IMG/VR virus record: IMGVR_UViG_3300036715_000227
Span: 2,353-66,352 of that record
Reading direction: 5' to 3' (one strand)
Length of the DNA stretch: 64,000 nt
Origin: a virus
Both the position numbers and the translations under genes were made by a program. Numbering within the stretch: position 1 is the stretch's first letter; every line of letters starts with the position of its first letter. This document shows positions 2,341 through 24,896 of the stretch, one piece after another. The notes under the pieces are model-generated. The model saw only the letters and a list, made by a program, of their open reading frames with translations. It ran no database searches and was not told where the DNA came from.

Positions 2341-4512
2341 TTAGTACGGCAACACTTGTACACTATCATACACTCTGTTTCTGTATTCTGCGGGCGTGGC
2401 ACTCTCAGAAAACTCAACAATAGGGCTAACCAATTTAATAGTGTTCACATCAAATTTAGTGAACCTGTTGGACTTTTTATTGTAATCACTTATGAACGGA
2501 TTCGTAAAGTCCACGATCACAGTGGCATCATTGAACCAGAATCCAGCCTTAGGTTGCACTGACTCTCCCTTTTCTAAGTAGGTCAGTACACCATAATAGT
2601 ACGCAGGATCGTCGATTAAATCTATTTCATCAACTACGAATTTGTTAATGATAATATATTTGTCTTTAATAATGTTACCGTGCTCGTCAATAATTGTATC
2701 ATTGACATCTTTATTAAAGAATGATACCGTTAACTTATTCGTGTCCGCCTGTATCAAATCAGGCAAACTAATGGTGTGAGTGCCTTCTTCTAAGGTCGTG
2801 TTGTATATAATGTCGTCATTATATGTTATACGCAAACCAGGGAGATCACCTTTGCTGTGACTTACATTCACTGCTAACTCAACATTAATTGGTTTAGAAG
2901 CTGCTCCTACTTTTTCCATTACTAACCCAAGGAACTCGTCCCAGTGTTCATAGTAATACTCTGATACGTTGACAATGTCTTTGTTATATCCATACTTGGC
3001 AAATATCTCATCGTGCCATTCTTCTGCTTCTGCTGCCTTAGCTGGCACACTAAGGGAAAGAGACTTAGTGTAACCTTCAGACATAATAGGAAGTTTATAC
3101 TCGTGGCAAAGTCTATGAAAGATTGCCCATCTAATATATCTTTCTTTATATGTTAGTGATGGATTCTTGGGCGTCCACCAAATTGACTTTTCTTTCTTAA
3201 TGAGCTCTGACTTGCCTTCGCGGTCATCCCACGCAGGAGTACCTTCGCCTATTTCGAATGTTCGCCCGGGATTAATGGCGTTGAGTACACCTATACGAGC
3301 ATACTTCATTAAGTTGAACGCAAGCACACATGTCTCGATGAAGTTATCCCATTTCTCTGCCCAATGACCCACAATCATTAAAGGAATGAATTTAATTCCA
3401 TTCTTCTCGAAGTGTTCGGCATCCCAATACAATCCTTCAACTACTGTTTTCTTATTCATTGCAAGTAAGACTTCATTACTGCCTGTTTCGACACCAATGG
3501 ACACACTACTAAGTCCGGAACGTCCTAGTAATTCATACAATTCAGGCTTCATTTGCCCAGCTGGCCTACTAATCCATCCAGATGCTGACCAGCGAATCTT
3601 TTTGTCAGGATTGGCATCATTATATTCTGCTAATGCAGCGGCCATCGCTTTGAGGTTTTTAACACTACCGTTAGCCAAGCTGTCAAGGAAATTGAAATGT
3701 CGTATGTTATACTTCTCAGCAAGGAAAACTATTTCACGAACAATGTTATCACCTGTTCTAAACCTGTATTTAAATCCTTGTACCTTGTTTACATCGCAGT
3801 AGTCGCAATTACGAACACAACCCTTGCTACTAAACACAGGAAGTTGCACTGTCCCTTCGTAACCAAACGTAGCATAATCGGCTAAGCGAAAGTCATCGAA
3901 GTTTGAGAATGGGAATTCTTGTTTGTTATAATCAGCATAGAAAAACTTTTGAGATTCCACTGAGCCGTTCTTCAATAATTCAATTAACGGTTCTTCTCCG
4001 TCCCCTGAAATAACCACGTCAACTACTTTGCGTTTCTTCACAAACATATCATAGTTCAGCATCTTTTCAGCCGATGTAACTTTGAACATCTTTTGTGCTA
4101 ATTCAAGAATAGGAATAGGTGCACCGTTCCCGCCCACTACAATGTTAATTTCTGGATTTAATTTTTTGATTCTCTCTGCCAACAAGTAAGTGCCCACATG
4201 AGAGTAAAGCGAGAATACACTAAAGCCAACCCATCGTGGATTCATGTCCACTATGTTCCGGGCCCACAAGTCGAGAAAGTCTGATATTATTTTTGCATTA
4301 TCTTCGCTAATTGGATCTTCTTCGTAGAAGTAATGCTGGAGATCGTTAAACTTTGTTAGATTGTTGTCTACATGTTTATACAATTCCATTCCGACGTCGA
4401 AAGTCTTACATGTCAACCCTTCAGCCTGAATGGCACCTTTCAAAACGGCAAGTGCCAGTGGGGGGTTTTCCAGCTGCGTGAAAGGAACCGAAACCAGTAC
4501 TATGTCGAGCAT
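2341..4512 (-). CDS. cobalamin-binding radical SAM protein
   Basis: PPLALAVLKG..VGFS..IVVGG..GDGE B12-type domain; SKGCVRNCDYC CxxxCxxC. Confidence 0.9.
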   Translation of the reverse strand: MLDIVLVSVPFTQLENPPLALAVLKGAIQAEGLTCKTFDVGMELYKHVDNNLTKFNDLQHYFYEEDPISEDNAKIISDFLDLWARNIVDMNPRWVGFSVFSLYSHVGTYLLAERIKKLNPEINIVVGGNGAPIPILELAQKMFKVTSAEKMLNYDMFVKKRKVVDVVISGDGEEPLIELLKNGSVESQKFFYADYNKQEFPFSNFDDFRLADYATFGYEGTVQLPVFSSKGCVRNCDYCDVNKVQGFKYRFRTGDNIVREIVFLAEKYNIRHFNFLDSLANGSVKNLKAMAAALAEYNDANPDKKIRWSASGWISRPAGQMKPELYELLGRSGLSSVSIGVETGSNEVLLAMNKKTVVEGLYWDAEHFEKNGIKFIPLMIVGHWAEKWDNFIETCVLAFNLMKYARIGVLNAINPGRTFEIGEGTPAWDDREGKSELIKKEKSIWWTPKNPSLTYKERYIRWAIFHRLCHEYKLPIMSEGYTKSLSLSVPAKAAEAEEWHDEIFAKYGYNKDIVNVSEYYYEHWDEFLGLVMEKVGAASKPINVELAVNVSHSKGDLPGLRITYNDDIIYNTTLEEGTHTISLPDLIQADTNKLTVSFFNKDVNDTIIDEHGNIIKDKYIIINKFVVDEIDLIDDPAYYYGVLTYLEKGESVQPKAGFWFNDATVIVDFTNPFISDYNKKSNRFTKFDVNTIKLVSPIVEFSESATPAEYRNRVYDSVQVLPY

Positions 4513-4536
4513 ATTTGTTTAATTTTGTTTAAGGAT

Positions 4537-4610
4537 TGGTGCCCCACGAGAGAATCGAACTCCCGTCCTCGGATTACAAAACCGATGTACTACCATTGTA
4601 CTAGTAGGGC
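4537..4610 (-). tRNA. tRNA-Thr(UGU)
   Basis: Loop TT-TGT-AA, CCA. Confidence 0.9.
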
Positions 4611-4665
4611 AATGTTGCTGCTAAAGTATTTATACGCAGATAAAGAATATGAATATTTTGTCGTG

Positions 4666-4691
4666 GCAAAGGGCACCTAAGTGCCCTTTGC
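4666..4691 (-). terminator. hairpin after DUF2828 gene
   Basis: Perfect inverted repeat GCAAAGGGCAC-CTAA-GTGCCCTTTGC. Confidence 0.6.
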
Positions 4692-4703
4692 GTCGCCTAC
4701 GCC

Positions 4704-6125
4704 TTAGGCGTAATCGTAACGTGGCTTCATAATAGCAGACTTCATGATGCCTTCTGGTGTGAATTCATCCATATCTGCGCCTAGCAATGCTGCTACAATA
4801 GCTGGGCTAAAGCCGCTAACCAATGCTGCACCAGACTTGTCTGCCTTAACAGGTGTGTTGTCACTAGAATTTAAATTCCAAAAAATTACACTAGGCATAG
4901 TGTAACCAGCAGCTTCGTACTTACGTTCGATCATTTGCATGGCCGAGTCGTCGTGCGTTACGCATCGGTCGAATTGCATGTCCGACAAGATCAATACCAT
5001 TGCTGGCATATCAGCTTGTGGGACAGAACCCTTAACTGCAACATCAAGGATCTTTGCAAATGCCTTGTTGATGTCAGTGTTCATTGCCCACTTAGACTTA
5101 ACCATTTGTTCCATCTTTTGGATGACGTCGCCCTTTAGGGTCAACAGTTCTGGCGAACCAGAGAAGGTTAAGAATGTGTCCTTGAACGCACCCTTGTTCT
5201 TATCAGCCAAGTACAATCCAAGGCTAACTGCAACGTCCAGGCAGGTTGTAACACCTGAACCAGACTTGCCACCTGCTGCGCAGGTCATAGAACCAGATAC
5301 GTCAACTAGAGGCAGGATACTTGCGTCACCTACGTAGTTTGGCAATGCGTTCCATTGCGCGATGATGTGATCCTTTTCAGTCTTGTTGTAGGAAGCACCG
5401 TAGGTACCAATCCCCTTCAAGACGTCGTATGGGAAAACTGCTGCGGCGTTAACCTTAACAGTTGGATCACCCTTCACCAATGCTGCAACGTATTCTGCGA
5501 ACTTGGTTGTGTTACGGCTGAAAGCCTTCTTGTAACGAGCCGAAGCTACAGATGGAACGTGCGAGAAGTTGATGTTATCCCAGTCCTTAGCGCACATCGC
5601 GGTTTCAACGACGTTAGTCATTGTAACCAGAGACTTACGGTAGAACTTTGGAGACATACCAAAGTGTTCACGGATTTCACGTGCGACTTCACCCTTACGA
5701 GGAGTCCACTTTGCAGCCAGACCGTTCTTTGCACGAAGTGCATCGCCCAGCATGTTGTATGCTGCATCCTTCATTGGCTTGGTCTTGAATACGAACAAGT
5801 CGTCCCAACGTCCAAGTTCAGGGATCTTAGCCAACAGAGCCTTAGCTGCGTCGGTATCAGCGCCTTCCAGGTACGCCATGATGTCACGGAAGATTTGACG
5901 TTCACCTGCACCACCACGAGCATCCCTGCTCCAGAGAGCAATGCGTAGAGCCAAATCCTTATCTTCCGCAAATGCAGAGACAAACTGTGGCACGATATTC
6001 TTCCCGCGTGATGCTCCTACATTATAGAAGAAATCAACACAGGCAGATGCCGAACTCTTGCGTGCCTTCATCCCATTGGATGTGCGAGATTCTTGGTTGG
6101 CGATTGCCTTTACAAATGCGTTCAT
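4704..6125 (-). CDS. DUF2828-type TROVE-like/vWA protein (Ro60-like RNA-binding candidate)
   Basis: RDARGGAGER, GRWDDL, LAAKWTPR helical region; vWA MIDAS DVSGSM, SDMQFD, IFWNL, LVSGFS. Confidence 0.85.
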   Translation of the reverse strand: MNAFVKAIANQESRTSNGMKARKSSASACVDFFYNVGASRGKNIVPQFVSAFAEDKDLALRIALWSRDARGGAGERQIFRDIMAYLEGADTDAAKALLAKIPELGRWDDLFVFKTKPMKDAAYNMLGDALRAKNGLAAKWTPRKGEVAREIREHFGMSPKFYRKSLVTMTNVVETAMCAKDWDNINFSHVPSVASARYKKAFSRNTTKFAEYVAALVKGDPTVKVNAAAVFPYDVLKGIGTYGASYNKTEKDHIIAQWNALPNYVGDASILPLVDVSGSMTCAAGGKSGSGVTTCLDVAVSLGLYLADKNKGAFKDTFLTFSGSPELLTLKGDVIQKMEQMVKSKWAMNTDINKAFAKILDVAVKGSVPQADMPAMVLILSDMQFDRCVTHDDSAMQMIERKYEAAGYTMPSVIFWNLNSSDNTPVKADKSGAALVSGFSPAIVAALLGADMDEFTPEGIMKSAIMKPRYDYA

Positions 6126-6138
6126 TTTTGATTTCCTT

Positions 6139-6178
6139 CAGATTACTTTTAAAATATTGAAATTGCTGTTAATAACCT
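6139..6178 (-). promoter_or_regulatory. CAGCAA-stem module in the DUF2828 leader, abutting the RBS
   Basis: AGGTTAT-TAA-CAGCAA..GTAATCT followed by GAAGGA-N9-ATG. Confidence 0.6.
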
Positions 6179-6196
6179 ATTACTATAGAGTATTTG

Positions 6197-6392
6197 ATTT
6201 AGTGCCCCGGGCTTGATTCCGGATTGTAACACACTACCAGTTACCTGCGTTGGGATATGCGTCCACATTGCCCACTCCACTTTCTCTCGATACCTTCGCA
6301 GTCTGGTCCTCACACCACAAGTCGCTAAACAAGGGACCAAATCTTTGTATTTCTGCACCGTATCTATGGTTTCCTTCAACCACGCCACTAAA
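6197..6392 (-). ncRNA. candidate closed structured RNA (~195 nt)
   Basis: Terminal stem ATTTAGTG/CACTAAAT, internal hairpins TGGTCC/GGACCA and CCGG/CCGG. Confidence 0.4.
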
Positions 6393-6407
6393 TTAAACAC
6401 TCTATAT

Positions 6408-6667
6408 AACAGGATGAGCGAGACAGTAAGAGATTATCGACTAGCCCCATCCGCAGTATATCGCTTCAAGTCTCACCAGTCTATCTAAATTATTCTAACT
6501 TAGAAAACTATCTCATATTCTACGAGCACTATTGCATGTTCTACGCACACTATCTCTACGGAAATTGGGGTATACCACCGAAGCAGCCACTTGCGTGCGC
6601 CCAACCTTGAACTAAATCGTCCTTCAAGCAATTTTAAGTATAGTTTTATGGTTGCTGAATTCATCCT
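6408..6667 (-). ncRNA. CAGCAA-stem (Y-RNA-like) RNA, long form
   Basis: AGGATGA-ATT-CAGCAA..TCATCCT-GTT, GCAA/UUCG-capped hairpins. Confidence 0.65.
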
Positions 6668-6675
6668 ACGCAAAC

Positions 6676-6810
6676 AACGGGATAGTTGCCTACTTTTTTC
6701 TTTTATCGAGAGGAACTGTCGAAACCGCTCTATCTAATCGAGCCCAATGCAAGCACTGGGTTATCTTTTAGCATTCCATAGTGATTGTATGGGTTGCTGT
6801 ACCTATCCCT
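6676..6810 (-). ncRNA. CAGCAA-stem (Y-RNA-like) RNA
   Basis: GGGATAG-GTA-CAGCAA..CTATCCC-GTT. Confidence 0.65.
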
Positions 6811-6840
6811 TTAAAACTCTTTTAACTAACTTAAGTATCT

Positions 6841-6869
6841 ATTGTACAATAAAAAGATTTAAAGTACAA
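6841..6869 (-). promoter_or_regulatory. sigma70-type promoter upstream of the Y-like RNAs and DUF2828
   Basis: TTGTAC-N17-TACAAT. Confidence 0.6.
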
Positions 6870-6883
6870 TCATTTTGGTAAAC

Positions 6884-7147
6884 TTACTTTGCTGATGCAA
6901 GCTGTTTCTTTGCTTGCTCAGCAATCTTGTCACGGAGGTAGTCTGGACCAATCTCGCCATTTTGAATTTCAAGCAATGCTGTCACTTCAGAGTGAACATG
7001 CTCGCGACGATTGCTATTTCGATTTTTGATTCGAATCTCACGTGCCCTTGCGGATGCAATAATGACCATGTCATAACGGGAACCGATGTTGCTGACGCAC
7101 TTGTCAGTGTCAATATCTGGACCGCGGCTTAGTGTTACTGAACTCAT
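6884..7147 (-). CDS. rpoZ: RNA polymerase omega subunit homolog
   Basis: SRYDMVIIASARAREI..EVTALLEIQNGEIG resembles omega conserved blocks; TTGACT-N17-TATAAT upstream. Confidence 0.8.
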   Translation of the reverse strand: MSSVTLSRGPDIDTDKCVSNIGSRYDMVIIASARAREIRIKNRNSNRREHVHSEVTALLEIQNGEIGPDYLRDKIAEQAKKQLASAK

Positions 7148-7208
7148 TTTGTGACCTTTAAAGTTGTTGCAAACTTATTATACAGTAAGAACAATTAAAA
7201 GTCAACTG

Positions 7209-7601
7209 TTATTTCTGTCTTTTGGAAAACTCAACCCATTGCATGTCATAGAAGTCTATGTGGTCCAGGAAGGACCTTTCCCATATTCCGAGGGTATATC
7301 TTAACGACATATAGCGAAATCCTGTGATTGACTGGTTGTGTATATCTGTCAAATCAGACACCAATTTTTTGTGTGCTGCACTGTGCATCAGCATAAACGG
7401 GTAATGCGCATCTGTCATTAACCGTTCTTCTTCTTGCAAATCCTTGGTCAGTATCTCCACTGTTTTGCCTATTAGGGCAGAACTGAGATCTCTGTCGATT
7501 GCAACGCCCTCGGCAGTATTAAGATTATGGATGATACCCCAATGGGATTCATCCATTTCTTTTATGCCGAGTTTATAGTGTTCAAAAATTTCTGGGCTCA
7601 T
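7209..7601 (-). CDS. hemerythrin-like protein
   Basis: LGIKEMDESH..EERLM..YP..HSAAH..DHIDFYD; one His ligand appears replaced. Confidence 0.75.
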   Translation of the reverse strand: MSPEIFEHYKLGIKEMDESHWGIIHNLNTAEGVAIDRDLSSALIGKTVEILTKDLQEEERLMTDAHYPFMLMHSAAHKKLVSDLTDIHNQSITGFRYMSLRYTLGIWERSFLDHIDFYDMQWVEFSKRQK

Positions 7602-7678
7602 ATTTTATTGTTATTATAAAATACTTATCGCCCGCGACTAAGTAGAAATACTATGCGTTAAGTTTTCTACTGTTATAA

Positions 7679-7754
7679 TGGTACCTTGGACTGGACTCGA
7701 ACCAGTATCGCTCTCCGTGTAAAGGAGACGTATGACCTCTCTACGCACCAAGGC
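7679..7754 (-). tRNA. tRNA-Val(UAC)
   Basis: TCTCC-TTTACAC-GGAGA, CCA. Confidence 0.88.
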
Positions 7755-7895
7755 TTTTGTATGCTCTAAGATAACTATTTCGTTTAGTTAACTTTTTATA
7801 TCTGCTACCGTGTCCCTTGCTTCCGAAGTTTTCAGTTTGTGTATGACATTAGCTATATTTCTAAAACGGCACTCTACCAACTGAGCTATCAAGGC
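7741..7895 (-). pseudogene. tRNA 5' half fused to an HNH C-terminal remnant
   Basis: GCCTTGATAGCTCAGTTGGTAGAGTG then frame CHTQTENFGSKG..., ending at TAG inside tRNA-Val. Confidence 0.6.
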
Positions 7896-7898
7896 AAT

Positions 7899-8153
7899 TT
7901 AAAAAGAGGTTGACATCCAACCATCTTCATCATCTTCATATTCGGGAAACGATTCAGCATGTAACTTTTGTAACGCAAACAATGCGGTTGTTACTTCAGC
8001 TGGGAATCCCTGCCTGTCATTGCGGCCATCCACCAACAACTTATTAATGTAATCCGGAAACTCTTTGTTTCCCCAAAACAATTCAATTCCTTTAGCAATG
8101 CGAGGGAACGTTGCATTCAACGTAAGCAAATTCGTGATCAACTCTCCTGACAT
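7899..8153 (-). CDS. hypothetical protein (WG..EF..Y..LL..RQGFP type)
   Basis: Paralog of the adjacent ORF; AGGAG RBS region. Confidence 0.7.
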   Translation of the reverse strand: MSGELITNLLTLNATFPRIAKGIELFWGNKEFPDYINKLLVDGRNDRQGFPAEVTTALFALQKLHAESFPEYEDDEDGWMSTSF

Positions 8154-8154
8154 A

Positions 8155-8373
8155 CTAAATCCTAAATTCTTTTTGGTGTTCTTGACTCAATTCAATTAAT
8201 GCAAGTAATGCATCTGCGCCAAACTCTCTTGCTCTACCTGACACGGTCACGTTGAGCAAAGTATTCATGTACGGACGAAATTCTTTCTTGCCCCACATGA
8301 GGCATAAATGCTTACTTACTTCTGCATGTTCTTCATCAAGTAATGTAAAGTGTTCACTTTTCATAATTATCAT
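8155..8373 (-). CDS. hypothetical protein, paralog of 7899-8153
   Basis: LMWGKKEFRPYMNTLL..ALLALIEL. Confidence 0.65.
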   Translation of the reverse strand: MIIMKSEHFTLLDEEHAEVSKHLCLMWGKKEFRPYMNTLLNVTVSGRAREFGADALLALIELSQEHQKEFRI

Positions 8374-8618
8374 ACAGTATTTAGTTGTTGCGTCTTTAAT
8401 ATTTTGTCACGACGCTTATAAAGCGCAGCGTTAGAGATATTTAGCATTTTCTCTAGTTCACTTATGTTATAACTTGAGCAAGTCTATGATATCCCAATCT
8501 ACTTTTCTTTTATTTGTCTGCGCACATTTATGACTGCAAAATTTTTGCGAGGCAGGCTTCTTAATATTGCACACTGGGCAAGCATCATACTCTGCTGTTG
8601 CAGGTTAGATACTAATAA

Positions 8619-8696
8619 TGGCTCCGCACACTGGAATCGAACCAGTTTAAACAGGGATTAACAGTCCCGACCATGTCCTTACTCGGTTTCTGCGGA
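8619..8696 (-). tRNA. tRNA-Asn(GUU)
   Basis: Loop CT-GTT-AA, G73, CCA; near duplicate of 22274-22351. Confidence 0.88.
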
Positions 8697-8860
8697 ATAA
8701 ATTCTTGCGCTACGGTCCAATAACCCCGTTCAAGTCTGCGCCAACATATCAGCAGTATAGTTAAATTTCATCTGTGATACATCCCAGTTTACGCTGGTCC
8801 GGTAAAGTCCTATACGACTTATCACATTGGCATTCTCCTAAAACTACTGACTAACAATTC

Positions 8861-8936
8861 TGGTGCCCTCAGTCGGATTCGAACTGACCACATCCGCCTT
8901 ACAAGAGCGGCGCTCTACCAAATGAGCTATAAGGGC
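8861..8936 (-). tRNA. tRNA-Thr(UGU)
   Basis: CCGCT-CTTGTAA-GGCGG. Confidence 0.92.
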
Positions 8937-8942
8937 TTTATA

Positions 8943-9479
8943 CTAACTATTTATGGTGCGGGTGGACGGACTTGAACCGTCAAGCTGTGAGGCGGTTGAT
9001 TTTAAGTCAACTGAGTTTACCGATTTCTCCACACCCGCGTTATTCTTTTTCCTGCCACCTTTGTGGTTGGCTGCAATCTTTGCCTTGTGATCTTCGCTTA
9101 ATACGTTACCTTTATTGCCTCGACCGGCAGTATTTCCTACTGCTTTTCTACTATTAATTCTGCAAGCTTCTTCGTACCCGTATTTCTCTATCATTTTGTC
9201 CCAGGGACTTTTATGTCCTCCTGGTTGCTCTGCACGATCAATAGTCAAGTTATCTACATCAGTTCCCCAATACAAATGCTTCGGGTTGCTGCACTTACCA
9301 TTGTGGCATCCGTGGCACAAAGGATTCTACCCGACGGAATTGTCGTATCCAGATACTGTGCAAGCACGCCTTTATGGTTAAGTGGAATTTCCACCGCGCT
9401 CGCAACAAGGAGTAGTTAAGTCTAAATGACTTCTACGCTCGTCTCTTGACCGGGTAATAAACTCTTTGATTTCTATCAT
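8943..9479 (-). pseudogene. frameshifted HNH/NUMOD3 endonuclease
   Basis: MIEIKEF..CCERGGNST* / HKGVLAQYL.. / CHGCHNGKCSNPKHLYWGT..DN in different frames. Confidence 0.65.
8954..9038 (-). tRNA. tRNA-Leu(UAA)
   Basis: GTTGA-CTTAAAA-TCAAC, long variable arm. Confidence 0.92.
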
Positions 9480-10243: not shown

Positions 10244-10451
10244 ATGGGATTGGGAAGGCGTATGGAGTTTTACCCCAGGCGTTAATCGGCTTTTATAGTC
10301 CCCACCTCGTTGGACCACCGTGCCTCTGTACTTCTTGCAAGAAACCTTTTGTTGCATAGTGTTTTTATCAGTTTATTATTCACTACATCACGACGCTATG
10401 CCAACTAAATTGGCGCGCTGCTCGATACCTTCTACGGCGGGCAACAAATAT

Positions 10452-10567
10452 AACAGGATCACTTTAATTGGCGGCTGTGCTACCATTACACTAACAAGAC
10501 ACTCCGTGCCCTGCCCGGAATCGAACCGGACTCGCTGCTTGGATTTATTAAATGCTGGACTGATCCT
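10452..10567 (-). ncRNA. YrlA-like RNA: CAGCAA stem plus permuted tRNA domain
   Basis: AGGATCA-GTC-CAGCA; T arm CCGG-TTCGATT-CCGG, loop-closed acceptor, D arm GTGT-AATGGTA-GCAC; TGATCCT-GTT. Confidence 0.8.
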
Positions 10568-10572
10568 AAAAC

Positions 10573-10648
10573 TGGTTGCAGGTCTTGGATTTGAACCAAG
10601 GATGGCTAAGGCTTATGAGACCTCGCTGGTGACCAGACCCTACCTGCG
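10573..10648 (-). tRNA. tRNA(CAU), initiator-like (C1xA72)
   Basis: CGCAGGT/ACCTGCA, CT-CAT-AA; lacks the GGG/CCC anticodon stem. Confidence 0.75.
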
Positions 10649-13477: not shown

Positions 13478-13555
13478 TGGTCTCAGTATAAGGATTCGAA
13501 CCTTAGACCCCTGCGTCCCAAACGCAGTGCTCTAACCAGACTGAGCTACACTGAG
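13478..13555 (-). tRNA. tRNA-Pro(UGG)
   Basis: CTGCG-TTTGGGA-CGCAG. Confidence 0.93.
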
Positions 13556-13562
13556 AAAATAC

Positions 13563-13619
13563 AACAGGATTCGCTTTTTTCATAAACGTTGAAATTTTTG
13601 AATTTGCTGAAAGAATCCT
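13563..13619 (-). ncRNA. CAGCAA-stem RNA, minimal form
   Basis: AGGATTC-TTT-CAGCAA..GAATCCT-GTT. Confidence 0.7.
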
Positions 13620-13625
13620 AAAACT

Positions 13626-13700
13626 TGGCGGGCCGCCTAGGACTCGAACCCAGACCTAACGGATTTGGAATCCGCGATGCTGCCATTACACTAACGACCC
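13626..13700 (-). tRNA. tRNA-Trp(CCA)
   Basis: GCGGA-TTCCAAA-TCCGT. Confidence 0.9.
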
Positions 13701-13708
13701 ACTAAATT

Positions 13709-13783
13709 TGGTGCGACCGGGGAATTCCGACATCCCGACCAAGAGATTATGAGTCTCCTGCTCTTCCTCTGAGCTACAGTCGC
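13709..13783 (-). tRNA. tRNA(CAU), Met or Ile2
   Basis: GGAGA-CTCATAA-TCTCT; odd T loop. Confidence 0.8.
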
Positions 13784-13908: not shown

Positions 13909-13982
13909 TGGTAGGACGCCTCGGTACCGACCCGAGTTCTACAGGGTAAAAGCCTGTTGCTTCACTTTAAAGCTTGCATCCC
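13909..13982 (-). tRNA. atypical tRNA-Lys(UUU)
   Basis: ACAGG-CTTTTAC-CCTGT; T loop GTCGGTA; D loop lacks GG. Confidence 0.8.
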
Positions 13983-15189: not shown

Positions 15190-15339
15190 CTCATTAAATT
15201 TTTAATGAACAAAATGTGTTTCTCGCATTAGGTCATTTCTGCCGTCTGCTACCTTATTGCCCCATCTAGTGGTGTGCAATCAAACACTAAACTCTTGCAG
15301 TTAACTCGATCATTTACTGCTTTATTTAACTTATGTCTT

Positions 15340-15461
15340 ATTATACAATAAGAACAATTACTTAGCAAGTTCTTTTAACATTGTGTCTACCAACTTTCGT
15401 TGCCGTTTCCGTTAACTACTTACTAAGCTTCTATTATACATTAAGATGTATTATTGCGCAA
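15340..15461 (-). promoter_or_regulatory. two tandem sigma70-type promoters
   Basis: TTGCGC-N17-TATAAT and TTGCTA-N17-TATAAT, each with TCTTAWTG before the -10. Confidence 0.7.
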
Positions 15462-15723
15462 CCTTGTTTTGGTCTTTGTGCATCAATGCACCCCACTTTA
15501 GGGTAAACATAAATGTGCTGTCTGTTTCCACAGTGAACACAGCCCATGCCTTCTTAACCTTACCCCAGCGGTAATCATATTCTCGTTCGTATGTGAATGC
15601 GTAAAAATCCGCATCCAACTCTGTTTCCATTGCCCACATCAAGATCTCGTCAACGAATTCCTGGCGTGCATATTTGTGCTCGTCCCTTGTTAGGTAGACG
15701 GGCATTTCGATTCTAACTTTCAT
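15451..15723 (-). CDS. hypothetical protein
   Basis: 90 aa, AAGGAG RBS. Confidence 0.7.
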   Translation of the reverse strand: MKVRIEMPVYLTRDEHKYARQEFVDEILMWAMETELDADFYAFTYEREYDYRWGKVKKAWAVFTVETDSTFMFTLKWGALMHKDQNKVAQ

Positions 15724-19924: not shown

Positions 19925-19931
19925 ATAATAT

Positions 19932-19992
19932 AACAGGATCAACTTTTAGTTTTCGAACAAAGAAAATTTTTAAAGTTTGCTGAACTGATCCT
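19932..19992 (-). ncRNA. CAGCAA-stem RNA, minimal form
   Basis: AGGATCA-GTT-CAGCAA..TGATCCT-GTT. Confidence 0.7.
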
Positions 19993-19997
19993 AAAAC

Positions 19998-21132: not shown

Positions 21133-21219
21133 TGGCTGAGGAAGTACGACTTGAACGTACACGCCCTTTACAGGCACTGATTTCAAAGACCAGCGTGGCT
21201 ACCATTTCACCATTCCCCA
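21133..21219 (-). tRNA. tRNA(UUG), Gln anticodon with long variable arm
   Basis: CTGGT-CTTTGAA-ATCAG, GCCT-GTAAA-GGGC arm, U1-A72, G73. Confidence 0.8.
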
Positions 21220-21297: not shown

Positions 21298-21372
21298 TGG
21301 TGCTCTCTGGCAGATTTGAACTGCCTTCTGTGGACTACAAAACCACTATTCTCCCGAGTGAACTAAGAGAGC
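21298..21372 (-). tRNA. tRNA-Thr(UGU)
   Basis: TT-TGT-AG. Confidence 0.85.
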
Positions 21373-21378
21373 AAATAT

Positions 21379-21493
21379 AACAGGATGCCTTAATAGACGG
21401 CATGAAGCCGTCGCTCTGCAGAGCGTACTACGCGATGTGCGTGGTGTTGGAATCGAACCAACTGATCTAAAAGATCGTTGCTGCAAGCATCCT
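21379..21493 (-). ncRNA. YrlA-like RNA with four-arm permuted tRNA domain
   Basis: AGGATGC-TTG-CAGCAA; GTTGG-TTCGATT-CCAAC; closed acceptor; GCTC/GAGC; GACGG-CTTCATG-CCGTC; GCATCCT-GTT. Confidence 0.75.
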
Positions 21494-22266: not shown

Positions 22267-22273
22267 ATAAAAT

Positions 22274-22351
22274 TGGCTCCGCACACTGGAATCGAACCAG
22301 TTTAAACAGTGATTAACAGTCACGTCCTTGTCCATACTTGGATTCTGCGGA
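22274..22351 (-). tRNA. tRNA-Asn(GUU)
   Basis: CT-GTT-AA. Confidence 0.88.
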
Positions 22352-22359
22352 ATATAAAC

Positions 22360-22447
22360 TGGTGTTGCATGTAGGATTCGAACCTACTACCCTTGGAAGG
22401 GCACGGGGTTACAGCCCGCTCTAGCACTCCAACTCTAGCGATACAAC
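22360..22447 (-). tRNA. tRNA-Tyr(GUA)
   Basis: CT-GTA-AC, long variable arm. Confidence 0.88.
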
Positions 22448-22454
22448 ATTAAAT

Positions 22455-22516
22455 AGCAGGATAGTTTTTACGGTTTTGATTAAAAGTCAAATGTAATTGT
22501 TTGCTGAACCTATCCT
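22455..22516 (-). ncRNA. CAGCAA-stem RNA carrying a tRNA-Lys(UUU) anticodon stem-loop
   Basis: AGGATAG-GTT-CAGCAA..TTTGA-CTTTTAA-TCAAA..CTATCCT. Confidence 0.72.
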
Positions 22517-22521
22517 ATAAC

Positions 22522-22596
22522 TGGCGCCGTAGACGAGACTCGAACTCGCCTGACTCACATCGACAGTGTGGTGCCCTCCCCGAGAGCTACTACGGC
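22522..22596 (-). tRNA. tRNA-Asp(GUC)
   Basis: CT-GTC-GA, G73. Confidence 0.87.
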
Positions 22597-24620: not shown

Positions 24621-24667
24621 TTTGTTTACCGTTTTAAGTTGCCTTGTTTAAATTTCTAACTTAAGCT

Positions 24668-24896
24668 ATTGTACATTAAGATTAATTAAAGTGCAACCGC
24701 TTTCTACATTTATTTATTCCATTTAGCACCACTGCTAAATTTTCTAACTTAAGCTATTGTACAATAAGATTAATTATTATGCAACCTGCTTGTTAAGTTA
24801 TTTATACCATTTCAAAAAACACTGCTATTAAACACGTTTTTTGAACTCTTTTTGCTTTCAAGTTCTAATTATGCATTAAGACGCATTGTTTGTCAA
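24668..24896 (-). promoter_or_regulatory. three tandem sigma70-type promoters heading the tRNA array
   Basis: TTGACA-N17-CATAAT, TTGCAT-N17-TACAAT, TTGCAC-N17-TACAAT, sharing TCTTAWTG. Confidence 0.8.

What the first reader, a model, noticed from the sequence alone, without database searches (positions are those of the whole stretch)
6123..6178. Copy of the RNA module on the DUF2828 gene's own RBS
Seen: AGGTTAT-TAA-CAGCAA..GTAATCT is followed immediately by GAAGGA-N9-ATG. Inference: translational autoregulation matching protein supply to the pool of partner RNAs. This is the best in-sequence link between the motif and this protein.
Basis: inference. Interest (0 to 1): 0.72.

Follow-up and report, generated by a model that had tools for sequence, protein, structure and literature searches.

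The report
Y-RNA-like hairpin before phage Ro gene
A small conserved RNA hairpin sits right against the ribosome-binding site of a jumbo-phage gene for a Ro60-like RNA-binding protein; it belongs to a widespread, apparently undescribed family of small phage RNAs found in the same genomes as this protein, so it is probably the protein's partner RNA.

Summary
On the minus strand, 6181-6136 forms a 9-bp hairpin whose loop opens with UAACAGCAA. Its last paired G is the first base of the Shine-Dalgarno GAAGGA, 8 nt before the ATG of a 473-aa DUF2828/DUF7788 gene. The predicted fold of that protein matches Ro60 (TROVE ring plus vWA). The hairpin belongs to an RNA family with strong stem covariation. 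A covariance model not trained on this copy finds it, and finds a copy ending within 30 nt of the ATG in 69 of 78 homologue loci. It also finds copies in all 11 other DUF2828 phage lineages examined: five beside the gene or within about 350 nt, one 6-7 kb away, three 9-170 kb away, mostly between tRNAs. Among 50 control tRNA-array contigs, the same three carry both protein and RNA. The motif-protein link is therefore strongly supported. Most likely these are Y-RNA-like partner RNAs co-transcribed with their Ro-like protein. Translational autoregulation through the RBS-adjacent copy is plausible but untested, and it cannot be the family's general role, since other lineages place copies downstream or far away. 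No Rfam family reaches threshold. The only recurrent sub-threshold match is Dictyostelium Class I RNA.

The parts
6136..6181 (-). Leader copy of the RNA module (minimal form, 46 nt, no inner hairpin)
   Evidence: R1 hit of 27.5 bits, E 1.4e-4; this copy was not in the training set. Fold.
6171..6179 (-). 5' arm of terminal stem P1 (UAGGUUAUU)
   Evidence: MFE pairing; covariation of the homologous stem
6163..6171 (-). Conserved single-stranded loop motif UAACAGCAA
   Evidence: C14, G16, C17 and A18 are invariant in alignment A2. The same motif occurs in other lineages.
6139..6147 (-). 3' arm of P1 (AGUAAUCUG), ending in the family's conserved CUG
6134..6139 (-). Shine-Dalgarno-like GAAGGA; its first G is the last paired base of P1
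   Evidence: Sequence. The SD is unpaired in the MFE.
4704..6125 (-). DUF2828/DUF7788 gene (473 aa), a Ro60-like TROVE ring plus vWA domain with a MIDAS motif
   Evidence: Pfam; invariant D275-x-S277-G278-S279; the 13 best PDB fold matches are all Ro60/Rsr/TROVE
6410..6668 (-). Upstream long copy of the module (UAGGAUGA ... UCAUCCUG closing a ~240-nt insert)
   Evidence: Pattern hit. The terminal stem is in the MFE, but the fold is no better than shuffles, z -0.52. Close relatives have ...CTCATCCTG directly before their leader copy.
6679..6809 (-). Upstream long copy of the module (GGGAUAG-GUACAGCAAC ... CUAUCCC)
   Evidence: Pattern hit; terminal stem in the MFE. Weaker case: R1 sees only the loop part (12 bits).
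6839..6876 (-). Promoter-like repeated element (TTGTAC-17-TACAAT on the minus strand), a candidate start of the RNA-array/DUF2828 transcript
   Evidence: Repeat family D10/D11 with 5-6 copies. It fell below the threshold of the consensus scan, and no terminator-like site lies in 4400-7700.
19931..19995 (-). Trans copy of the module directly after a tRNA-like ...CCA end
   Evidence: R1 62.2 bits (training member); context
13562..13622 (-). Trans copy between tRNA-Trp (13626-13700) and tRNA-Pro (13478-13555)
   Evidence: R1 54.2 bits (training member); tRNAs
22454..22519 (-). Trans copy between tRNA-Asp (22522-22596) and tRNA-Tyr (22360-22447)
   Evidence: R1 52.5 bits (training member); tRNAs
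10451..10570 (-). Trans copy after tRNA-Met (10573-10648), with an 80-nt insert holding T-arm-like and D-arm-like hairpins
   Evidence: R1 32 bits, not in training; fold and T-loop motif; weak YrlA alignment, 12.8 bits
21225..21294 (-). Trans copy (UUCUGCAA variant) between tRNA-Thr (21298-21372) and tRNA-Gln (21133-21219)
   Evidence: R1 23.3 bits, not in training; tRNAs
21382..21493 (-). Trans copy with a T-arm-like insert (AAGGAUGCU-UGCAGCAAC ... GGCAUCCUG)
   Evidence: Pattern hit; fold with terminal stem, -45 kcal/mol

Best explanation
The element at 6181-6136 is the last, promoter-distal member of a short array of small structured RNAs that lie upstream of a Ro60-like (DUF2828/DUF7788) gene and are probably transcribed with it. 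It belongs to a family of phage RNAs about 45-125 nt long. Members have a 7-9 bp terminal stem that usually opens (U/A)AG and closes CUG(U). An unpaired U(U/A)(A/C)CAGCAA follows the 5' arm. A variable interior follows, often a small hairpin and sometimes a tRNA-like T/D-arm module. I read these as Y-RNA-like ligands of the Ro-like ring. They would be released from polycistronic precursors by the enzymes that trim the flanking tRNAs, then bound through the stem and the single-stranded motif. Because the leader copy ends on the Shine-Dalgarno sequence, protein bound there would sit within the usual 30S footprint. That could add negative feedback when protein exceeds free partner RNA. Shown here: the structure and covariation, the conserved position, the Ro60 fold and the co-occurrence. 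Inferred: binding, processing and any feedback.
For: The RNA is real and acts on the sense strand. In 39 copies the P1 stem is 90.3% paired, with 75 doubly changed cells, and 0 of 500 shuffles reach that. Across other lineages, 20 distinct rows are 92.4% paired, 7 of 8 pairs have double changes, and 0 of 500 shuffles reach that; this alignment is fitted to the model. A U.G closing pair occurs in 34 of 39 copies. All 157 hits in the 80 homologue loci are on the gene strand.

The protein is Ro60-like. The 13 best PDB fold matches are all Ro60/Rsr/TROVE (E 1e-6 to 1e-4, TM up to 0.59), including the Ro60 of Thermus phage phiLo. The MIDAS motif DxSGS is invariant. Depositors of mycobacteriophage homologues call them 'Ro-like RNA binding protein'.

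Protein and RNA are linked. An R1 hit ends within 30 nt of the ATG in 69 of 78 homologue loci (hand tally), which hold 47 distinct leader sequences. Of the 50 largest contigs carrying the module pattern, 33 hold DUF7788, including 5 of 5 that are at least 90% complete. Of 50 control tRNA-array contigs, 3 hold DUF7788 and 3 hold an R1 hit at E<=0.001, and they are the same three records. Full overlap by chance is 1 in 19,600 by hand calculation.

R1 copies occur in all 11 other DUF2828 lineages examined. Five lineages have them beside the gene or within about 350 nt (Alf5, Listeria cka17, Campylobacter F352, Bacillus Thrax2, Staphylococcus S-CoN_Ph11, mycobacteriophage Gabriela, G052 and G072 together cover this group and one more). 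Three whole genomes (DLP_6, R11Z, 7t3) hold them inside tRNA arrays 6-170 kb away. In G053 the copies lie 33-46 kb from the gene and their surroundings were not examined. T4 has neither protein nor RNA.

There is precedent. Y-like RNAs lie upstream of the phiLo Ro60 gene and bind it (PMC12135203, passages). In M. smegmatis, YrlA and YrlB are encoded upstream of rsr and are processed from one precursor (PMC4201824, passages). Listeria phage CKA15 has three highly transcribed non-coding regions within 2 kb upstream of its Rsr-like gene (PMC12282133, passages), and in its relative cka17 R1 places two copies there.

Some long copies carry T-arm-like hairpins.

Two arrangements favour feedback. The leader copy abuts or lies 11-25 nt from the ATG. 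In L064/L065 the SD and AUG lie inside the module loop.
Against: No binding, processing or expression data exist for this phage. No Rfam Y RNA or YrlA model matches the leader copy at E<=10. The best YrlA alignment on any window copy is 12.8 bits against a cut-off of 69. The protein has no sequence-level match to any solved Ro60 and no Pfam TROVE hit, so 'Ro-like' rests on a predicted fold with mean pLDDT 72.

The leader hairpin is weak (-3.1 kcal/mol) and drops out of the MFE in a 126-nt context. The co-occurrence samples are not phylogenetically independent and many loci are near-duplicates. In one search only 106 of up to 502 first-look candidates per record were scored, so absence in the controls is not absolute. 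Seventeen of the 50 module-bearing contigs show no DUF7788, though all 17 are fragments estimated at 6-71% complete.

Against feedback as a general role: copies lie downstream of the gene or far from it in six of the other lineages.
Confidence: 0.6

Rival explanations
1. This is the first reader's view: a dedicated translational operator. The leader copy exists mainly as a mimic of the protein's RNA ligand. Surplus DUF2828 protein binds it and blocks the 30S subunit, matching protein supply to the pool of partner RNAs, as in autogenous control by ribosomal proteins or the MS2 coat protein. This view is compatible with the best explanation and differs only in what it takes as the primary role.
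For: The P1 3' arm ends on the first base of GAAGGA. The stem end lies 11-25 nt from the ATG across homologue leaders. RBS-proximal copies recur in the 452-kb record G052, 22 nt before the ATG, and in Campylobacter phage F352, where the hit ends 18 nt before the annotated CDS. In L064/L065 the SD and AUG lie inside the loop. The window and its closest relatives keep only the stem and the CAGCAA motif (41-46 nt forms), as expected of a minimal operator, and these short forms still show compensatory stem changes.
Against: This has not been tested. The SD is unpaired in the predicted fold, so the structure alone does not occlude it. In about half of the leaders 5-15 nt separate CUG from the SD. 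In the Staphylococcus, mycobacterial and Felixounavirus lineages the copies are downstream of the gene, and in three others they are far away, so the arrangement is not a family trait. The passages I read on Ro60/Y RNA systems describe no autoregulation.
Confidence: 0.25
2. The hairpins are processing or stability elements. They would be spacers that guide endonucleolytic maturation of tRNA and RNA arrays, or 5' hairpins that protect the downstream mRNA. The Ro-like protein would then be only indirectly linked to them, for example as a quality-control factor for the same precursor.
For: Copies begin 3-5 nt after tRNA 3' ends, and the next tRNA begins 6-12 nt after CUGU, in the window and in four cultured phages. 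No terminator-like sites lie in 4400-7700, so long precursors are likely. A hairpin at the mRNA 5' end is a known stabiliser; this last point is my own knowledge and was not tested.
Against: A spacer role does not explain an invariant single-stranded CAGCA motif kept across phages of Proteobacteria, Firmicutes, Actinobacteria and Campylobacter. It also does not explain why 47 of 50 control tRNA-array contigs do without it, while the three that have it are exactly those with DUF7788. T4 matures its tRNA array without it.
Confidence: 0.13
3. The resemblance is a chance A/U-rich hairpin with no function.
For: The literal 16-mer is not repeated above chance. The hairpin is thermodynamically weak.
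Against: A model that never saw this copy detects it at E 1.4e-4. The same position is occupied in 69 of 78 homologue loci, with compensatory stem changes.
Confidence: 0.02

Closest known systems
Bacterial and phage Y RNAs (YrlA/YrlB, Rfam RF02553; Yrl1/Yrl2 of Thermus phage phiLo) with Ro60/Rsr
   Same: These are small RNAs whose 5' and 3' ends form a stem, with a conserved motif in the adjoining unpaired region. They are encoded next to a Ro60-fold protein on the same strand, often upstream and several in a row, and are processed from a precursor. Some carry tRNA-like T and D arms (PMC4201824 and PMC12135203, passages; window copies).
   Different: No Rfam Y RNA or YrlA model reaches its threshold on any copy. 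The conserved motif is CAGCAA rather than the GNCGAA(N)G quoted for YrlA. Most copies are only 45-70 nt with no tRNA-like domain. The protein is the DUF2828/DUF7788 family, not Pfam TROVE, and has no sequence match to solved Ro60s. Many copies sit between tRNAs far from the gene.
Dictyostelium Class I RNAs (Rfam RF01414)
   Same: This is the only Rfam family that repeatedly aligns to the modules, on six copies from five lineages at 18.9-33.8 bits. The features reported for Class I RNAs match: length 42-65 nt; a short terminal stem kept by compensatory changes; a conserved motif next to the 5' arm (the Rfam consensus printed contains UUACAGCAA); conserved ends AAG and CUGU with a G-C closing pair; and low GC (PMC7919456, passages).
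   Different: All scores are below the gathering score of 41.5. Class I RNAs are eukaryotic genes with a DUSE promoter and are reported as unique to Dictyostelia. The one partner named in what I read is the RRM protein Rnp1A. I could not test whether dictyostelids encode DUF2828 proteins. Homology is not shown, and A/U-rich composition may inflate the scores.
Autogenous translational operators that mimic a protein's primary RNA ligand (ribosomal-protein leaders, MS2 coat protein, T4 RegA/gp32)
   Same: A copy of the ligand-like hairpin sits at the RBS of the gene for the presumed binding protein.
   Different: No repression is shown here, and the comparison rests on my own knowledge of those systems. 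The arrangement is absent from several lineages of the same protein-RNA pair.
Bas63 gp130 (E. coli Felixounavirus Ro60-like protein)
   Same: A preprint reports that gp130 resembles Ro60 in structure, lies directly upstream of the tRNA genes and counters the Ppl defence system. Its authors guessed that some annotated tRNAs are Y RNAs (10.1101/2024.10.10.617714, passages). In the Felixounavirus Alf5, the DUF2828 gene is followed by a tRNA array holding two module copies.
   Different: The candidate partner RNAs found here are not tRNAs but separate ~65-nt hairpins between them. I did not check Bas63 itself.

Membership tests
Y RNA / YrlA (Rfam RF00019, RF02553) | Encoded next to a Ro60-family gene on the same strand | tested here: met
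   The leader copy abuts the gene. 69 of 78 homologue loci have one there. Other lineages also have adjacent copies. Fold of the protein.
Y RNA / YrlA (Rfam RF00019, RF02553) | 5' and 3' ends form a conserved stem | tested here: met
   P1 covariation
Y RNA / YrlA (Rfam RF00019, RF02553) | Scores at or above the Rfam gathering threshold | tested here: not met
   No hit at gathering. Nothing for the leader copy at E<=10. The best YrlA scores are 12.8 bits (window 10450-10558) and 21.4-24.3 bits in other phages, against a cut-off of 69.
Y RNA / YrlA (Rfam RF00019, RF02553) | GNCGAA(N)G loop motif (as quoted in PMC4201824) | tested here: not met
   The conserved loop motif here is (U/A)(A/C)CAGCAA
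Y RNA / YrlA (Rfam RF00019, RF02553) | tRNA-like domain | tested here: inconclusive
   T-arm-like hairpins occur in the long copies 10572-10449 and 21496-21375. The leader copy and most ~60-nt copies have none.
Y RNA / YrlA (Rfam RF00019, RF02553) | Bound by the Ro60-family protein | not testable with these tools
   Needs EMSA, RIP or a structure
Ro60 / TROVE + vWA proteins | HEAT-repeat ring plus vWA fold | tested here: met
   AlphaFold2 model with pLDDT 72.2 and pTM 0.69. The 13 best Foldseek PDB hits are all Ro60/Rsr/TROVE.
Ro60 / TROVE + vWA proteins | MIDAS motif in the vWA domain | tested here: met
   D275, S277, G278 and S279 are invariant in 32 homologues
Ro60 / TROVE + vWA proteins | Sequence-level membership (Pfam TROVE, or similarity to solved Ro60) | tested here: not met
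   Pfam gives only DUF2828 and DUF7788. phmmer against PDB sequences gives 0 hits at E<=1.
Dictyostelium Class I RNA (RF01414) | Scores at or above the Rfam gathering threshold (41.5 bits) | tested here: not met
   18.9 bits for the leader copy; 33.8; 31.8, 22.8, 22.4 and 22.4
Dictyostelium Class I RNA (RF01414) | 42-65 nt, a short terminal stem with compensatory changes, a conserved motif beside the 5' arm, and a 3' CUGU | tested here: met
   The leader copy is 46 nt and most copies are 55-70 nt. Stem. Motif and CUG. Definition from PMC7919456.
Dictyostelium Class I RNA (RF01414) | Dictyostelid gene with an upstream DUSE promoter | tested here: not met
   The record is a virus contig. The copies lie inside phage tRNA arrays and leaders.
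Autogenous translational operator | Ligand-like element at the RBS of the binding protein's own gene, conserved in homologues | tested here: met
Autogenous translational operator | Repression of translation by the protein | not testable with these tools
   Needs a reporter or a toeprint assay

The most novel reading that the evidence does not exclude
The DUF2828/DUF7788 proteins and these ACAGCAA stem-loop RNAs may form a second, unrecognised Ro/Y-type ribonucleoprotein system that reaches beyond phages. DUF2828 proteins occur in plants and fungi. The phage RNAs share every RNA-intrinsic hallmark of the Class I RNAs of dictyostelid amoebae, whose function and full protein partners are unknown. 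On this reading, Class I-like RNAs would be the cognate ligands of DUF2828 proteins in eukaryotes as well. Phages would embed the RNAs in tRNA arrays so that tRNA-processing enzymes release them. The RBS-adjacent copy would titrate synthesis of the protein against the RNA pool.
Probability: 0.1. Interest if true: 0.85.

Novelty: new variant of a known kind. Interest (0 to 1): 0.68.

Why it matters
Phage Ro60-like proteins are widespread: 711 of 50,697 phage records hold a homologue. One of them is reported to counter a bacterial defence system (preprint). Their RNA partners, however, are known only for a Thermus phage and, by prediction, for YrlA-type loci. This work defines a compact, easily searched RNA family that is found in the same genomes as the DUF2828 branch of these proteins, in phages of Gram-negative, Gram-positive and actinobacterial hosts. 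Some of those phages are cultured E. coli phages, so binding, processing and feedback can be tested directly. It also explains recurrent unannotated gaps inside phage tRNA arrays and at least one probable false small ORF. It further raises a testable link to an orphan class of amoebal non-coding RNAs.

Tried and rejected
- **Literal repeat.** The 16-mer with up to 3 mismatches is not above chance. The family is defined by structure plus a short motif.
- **Megablast of 4000-9000 against named phages.** No match.
- **Rfam.** No family reaches threshold on any module. A GIR1 hit (11.6 bits) and similar low hits were dismissed as noise.
- **Terminator reading.** No terminator-like site lies in 4400-7700. 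The stem is A/U-rich and has no U tract.
- **GOLLD enclosed by a module stem in relative L002.** Not so.
- **T4 stable RNAs rnaC and rnaD as family members.** R1 finds nothing there. Its best T4 hit is 14.4 bits, E 0.81, inside a CDS.
- **Sequence search of the protein against PDB.** 0 hits.
- **ESM Atlas.** It returned only DUF2828 virus clusters and added nothing new.
- **Dictyostelium DUF2828.** I could not establish this. The 'longer' protein search named plants and fungi only, and literature searches for the family accessions found nothing relevant. The paper naming the other Class I-binding proteins is not held.
- **Earlier-findings tool.** Closed.
- **RNA-library contigs.** All are relatives' contigs at 90-99% likeness from metatranscriptome runs with small word shares. 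They mostly cover the ORF, and uncovered parts say nothing. One 399-nt contig of run X4 lies on 5823-5924 and 6057-6154, then runs on for 67 nt that read as a relative's module 5' half. That places ORF and module on one RNA-library contig. DNA carry-over cannot be excluded, so I give it no weight.
- **Fold of long copy 6668-6410.** No better than shuffles (z -0.52).
- **First hairpin finder.** It mis-assigned the arms in L022, L023, L025 and L061. I dropped those four rows before the counts and before building A2.
Full report
**What is there**

The finding lies on the minus strand. Read 5' to 3', positions 6181-6123 give AAUAGGUUAUUAACAGCAAUUUCAAUAUUUUAAAAGUAAUCUGAAGGAAAUCAAAAAUG.
- The ATG at 6125 opens a 473-aa ORF, 6125..4704.
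- Pfam assigns the ORF to DUF7788 (E 1.1e-46) and DUF2828 (E 1.2e-22).
With flanking bases they form a 9-bp stem, 6179-6171 with 6147-6139.
- The stem encloses a 23-nt loop that begins UAACAGCAA.
- The last paired G (6139) is the first base of GAAGGA. The spacer to the ATG is 8 nt, not 9.
- The hairpin is weak: -3.1 kcal/mol alone. It is present in the MFE of an 86-nt context but absent in a 126-nt context.
- The SD is unpaired in the fold.

**Is it more than chance?**

As a literal string it is not. The 16-mer with up to 3 mismatches matches twice against 0.93 expected.

As a structured motif it is.
- A pattern search found seven minus-strand sites of the form AGG...CAGCAA, three of them directly after tRNA CCA ends.
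- I collected 80 viral-contig loci encoding homologues of the protein at 58-91% identity and read their leaders.
- A simple stem-plus-motif finder saw the element within 130 nt of the ATG in 66 of 79 leaders, window included. Four of those 66 had mis-assigned arms and were dropped from later counts.
- An alignment of 36 leader copies and 3 window copies from tRNA arrays (A2) shows an 8-9 bp terminal stem. It is 90.3% paired, has 75 doubly changed cells, four pairs covary fully, and 0 of 500 shuffles reach the observed values. Sliding the partner by one column drops pairing to about 40%.
- A U.G closing pair occurs in 34 of 39 copies, which places the structure on the transcribed strand.

Covariance model R1 was built without the copy in question.
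- It finds that copy at 27.5 bits, E 1.4e-4.
- It finds five other minus-strand copies in the window.
- In the 80 loci it finds 157 hits at E<=0.01, all on the gene strand, nearly all upstream of the gene and often in tandem.

I tallied that table by hand against the 78 loci that contain the gene's 5' end.
- A hit ends within 30 nt of the ATG in 69 of the 78.
- Three misses have truncated upstream sequence: L005, L063 and L079.
- Three misses are visible variants that the model misses: L031, L071 and L075.
- In one miss (L048) the nearest copy is 288 nt away.
- In two (L064 and L065) the module spans the start. The 5' arm and UAACAGCAA come directly before AGGAG, and the 3' arm lies in codons 10-12.
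- Many loci are near-duplicates. The distinct leader sequences number 47.

**The protein**
- Thirty-two homologues share an invariant DxSGS.
- An AlphaFold2 model (pLDDT 72.2, pTM 0.69) was searched against the PDB. The 13 best matches are all Ro60, Rsr or TROVE entries, including the Ro60 of Thermus phage phiLo. Isolated vWA domains follow.
- Sequence search against PDB chains finds nothing, and Pfam gives no TROVE hit. This is therefore a separate family with a Ro60-like fold.
- Homologues occur in 711 of 50,697 phage records. Some are annotated 'Ro-like RNA binding protein' or 'RNA-binding protein'.
- The family is large, with 6003 representative clusters at E<=0.001.
- It has plant and fungal members.

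**How far protein and RNA go together**

*Whole-genome scans of four cultured phages with a homologue.* These were Stenotrophomonas DLP_6, Vibrio R11Z, Salmonella 7t3 and E. coli Alf5.
- All four have R1 hits.
- Most hits are sandwiched between tRNAs. They start 3-4 nt after one tRNA, and the next tRNA starts 6-12 nt after CUGU.
- In Alf5 the hits lie in the tRNA array just downstream of the gene.
- In R11Z they lie 6-7 kb from the gene. In DLP_6 and 7t3 they lie 9-170 kb from it.

*Five more lineages, scanned with filters off.*
- Listeria phage cka17: two copies 190-340 nt upstream of the gene.
- Campylobacter phage F352: a copy ending 18 nt before the CDS.
- Bacillus phage Thrax2: a copy about 95 nt upstream.
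- Staphylococcus phage S-CoN_Ph11: two copies just downstream.
- Mycobacteriophage Gabriela: two copies just downstream.
- All are on the gene strand and carry U(U/A)ACAGCAA.

*Cross-lineage structure.* The alignment has 20 distinct rows and is fitted to the model. It keeps the stem at 92.4% pairing, and 7 of 8 pairs have double changes.

*Co-occurrence test.*
- Of the 50 largest among the 80 listed, 33 hold DUF7788, including 5 of 5 that are at least 90% complete.
- The control was the 50 largest of 80 listed contigs holding two canonical T-loops a tRNA-length apart.
- Among those 50, DUF7788 is present in 3, and in 2 of the 17 that are at least 90% complete.
- An R1 hit at E<=0.001 is present in 3 of the 50, and these are the same three records.
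- In one of them, a 452-kb record, the copy ends 22 nt before the ATG.
- In the second the copy lies about 300 nt downstream of the gene.
- In the third the copies lie 33-46 kb from the gene.
- T4 has neither protein nor RNA.

*Caveats.* The samples are not phylogenetically independent. Contigs are often fragments. In one search only part of the first-look candidates were scored.

**What it most likely is**

Ro60-family proteins are known to bind small RNAs whose ends form a stem, and the genes for those RNAs lie beside the protein gene.
- Two Y-like RNAs lie upstream of the phiLo Ro60 gene and bind it (PMC12135203, passages).
- In M. smegmatis, YrlA and YrlB lie upstream of rsr and are cut from one precursor. 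YrlA-like RNAs were predicted near Ro60 in more than 250 bacteria and phages (PMC4201824, passages).
- In Listeria phage CKA15, three very abundant non-coding transcripts lie within 2 kb upstream of the Rsr-like gene, and the authors suggested they are Y RNAs (PMC12282133, passages).
- The modules found here fit that pattern. Some long copies contain T-arm-like hairpins.
- One long copy aligns, at an insignificant 12.8 bits, to Rfam YrlA in the order T-arm, stem-loop, D-arm.

I therefore read 6181-6136 as the last of a short array of partner-RNA genes.
- The array comprises 6809-6679, 6668-6410 and 6181-6136, with an unrelated 225-nt structured RNA inserted at 6408-6184.
- It lies between a promoter-like repeat at 6876-6839 and the gene.
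- No terminator-like site lies in 4400-7700.

Binding, processing and transcription are inferred, not shown.

**The autoregulation idea**

It remains open.

In its favour:
- The stem's 3' arm abuts the SD in the window.
- Its end lies 11-25 nt from the ATG across the clade, which is within a normal 30S footprint by my own knowledge.
- RBS-proximal copies recur in two distant lineages.
- In L064/L065 the loop encloses the SD and AUG.
- The window and its nearest relatives keep only the stem and motif.

Against it as a general role:
- The SD is not sequestered by the fold.
- In about half of the leaders a spacer separates CUG from the SD.
- Several lineages place the copies downstream of the gene or far from it.

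I give it about 0.25 as the primary role, and it is compatible with the partner-RNA reading.

**Comparison with known families**
- No Rfam family reaches its threshold on any copy.
- The only recurrent sub-threshold match is Dictyostelium Class I RNA, on six copies from five lineages: 18.9 bits on the leader copy, 33.8, and 31.8, 22.8, 22.4 and 22.4. The cut-off is 41.5.
- The published description of Class I RNAs matches point for point (PMC7919456, passages): 42-65 nt; a short terminal stem kept by compensatory changes; a conserved motif beside the 5' arm; conserved AAG and CUGU ends with a G-C closing pair; and GC of 32-41%.
- That paper reports them as unique to Dictyostelia. Their only named partner in what I read is an RRM protein.
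- I could not test whether dictyostelids encode DUF2828 proteins, so this stays a lead.
- No paper in the held library contains the motif words.
- No held paper gives a function for DUF2828 or DUF7788.
- Supplementary tables of PMC4201824 that list phage loci were not available to me.

**Verdict**

The mechanism is best read as a Y-RNA-like partner RNA encoded with its Ro-like protein. Feedback at the RBS is a reasonable but untested addition. This is a new variant of a known kind of system.

Noticed in passing
L002:876-1304 (+), the relative at 89% protein identity: A GOLLD RNA (RF02032, 196.6 bits, above the cut-off of 150) lies among tRNAs about 1.7 kb upstream of that relative's DUF2828 gene. 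The window itself gave no GOLLD hit at gathering. The GOLLD RNA is not enclosed by a module stem.
   Followed up: partly
L335:1470-2021 (+), Listeria phage cka17: A ROOL-like RNA (RF03087, 90.1 bits, E 5.7e-17, just under the cut-off of 99.1) lies about 1 kb upstream of the DUF2828 gene, ahead of the two module copies. Large ornate RNAs, tRNAs, module RNAs and the Ro-like gene seem to cluster.
   Followed up: no
window 6184-6408 (-): A 225-nt RNA-like element is closed by a ~21-bp terminal stem (MFE -71.9 kcal/mol, z -3.25). It sits between the long module and the leader copy. Close relatives lack it; in them the two modules are 5 nt apart. It has no Rfam match and may be an insertion.
   Followed up: partly
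window 6884-7147 (-): An 87-aa ORF matches RNA_pol_Rpb6 (the omega-like subunit), E 6.2e-9. It is preceded by a strong sigma-70-like promoter, TTGACT-17-TATAAT, at 7205-7177.
   Followed up: no
window 2341-4512 (-) and 4537-4610 (-): Directly downstream of the DUF2828 gene lie tRNA-Thr and a 723-aa protein with a B12-binding domain and a radical SAM domain. Both are on the same strand, and no terminator-like site lies between 4400 and the DUF2828 gene.
   Followed up: no
window 1-23200 (-): There are 48 tRNA genes, all on the minus strand. Rfam adds tRNAs at 13712-13783 and 13912-13982. Several tRNA-3'-half-like repeats are called by neither tool, for example the 87-nt pair 8613-8699 and 22268-22354 at 90% identity (family D18).
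   Followed up: no
L339:3519-3608, Staphylococcus phage S-CoN_Ph11: The annotated 29-aa CDS0055 coincides with a module copy at 3529-3598. It is probably not a protein-coding gene.
   Followed up: no
L336:3431-3800, mycobacteriophage Gabriela: The 370-nt gap downstream of the 'Ro-like RNA binding protein' gene holds two module copies (3469-3525 and 3668-3727). Between them is a weak YrlA-like T/D-arm hit (3578-3631, 21.4 bits). Module-type and YrlA-type RNAs may therefore coexist there.
   Followed up: no
window 6839-6876, 7175-7212, 15339-15468, 24666-24791 (-): A repeated ~38-nt element reads as a -35/-10 promoter on the minus strand and has 5-6 copies (families D10/D11). It is a likely phage early or middle promoter family.
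   Followed up: no
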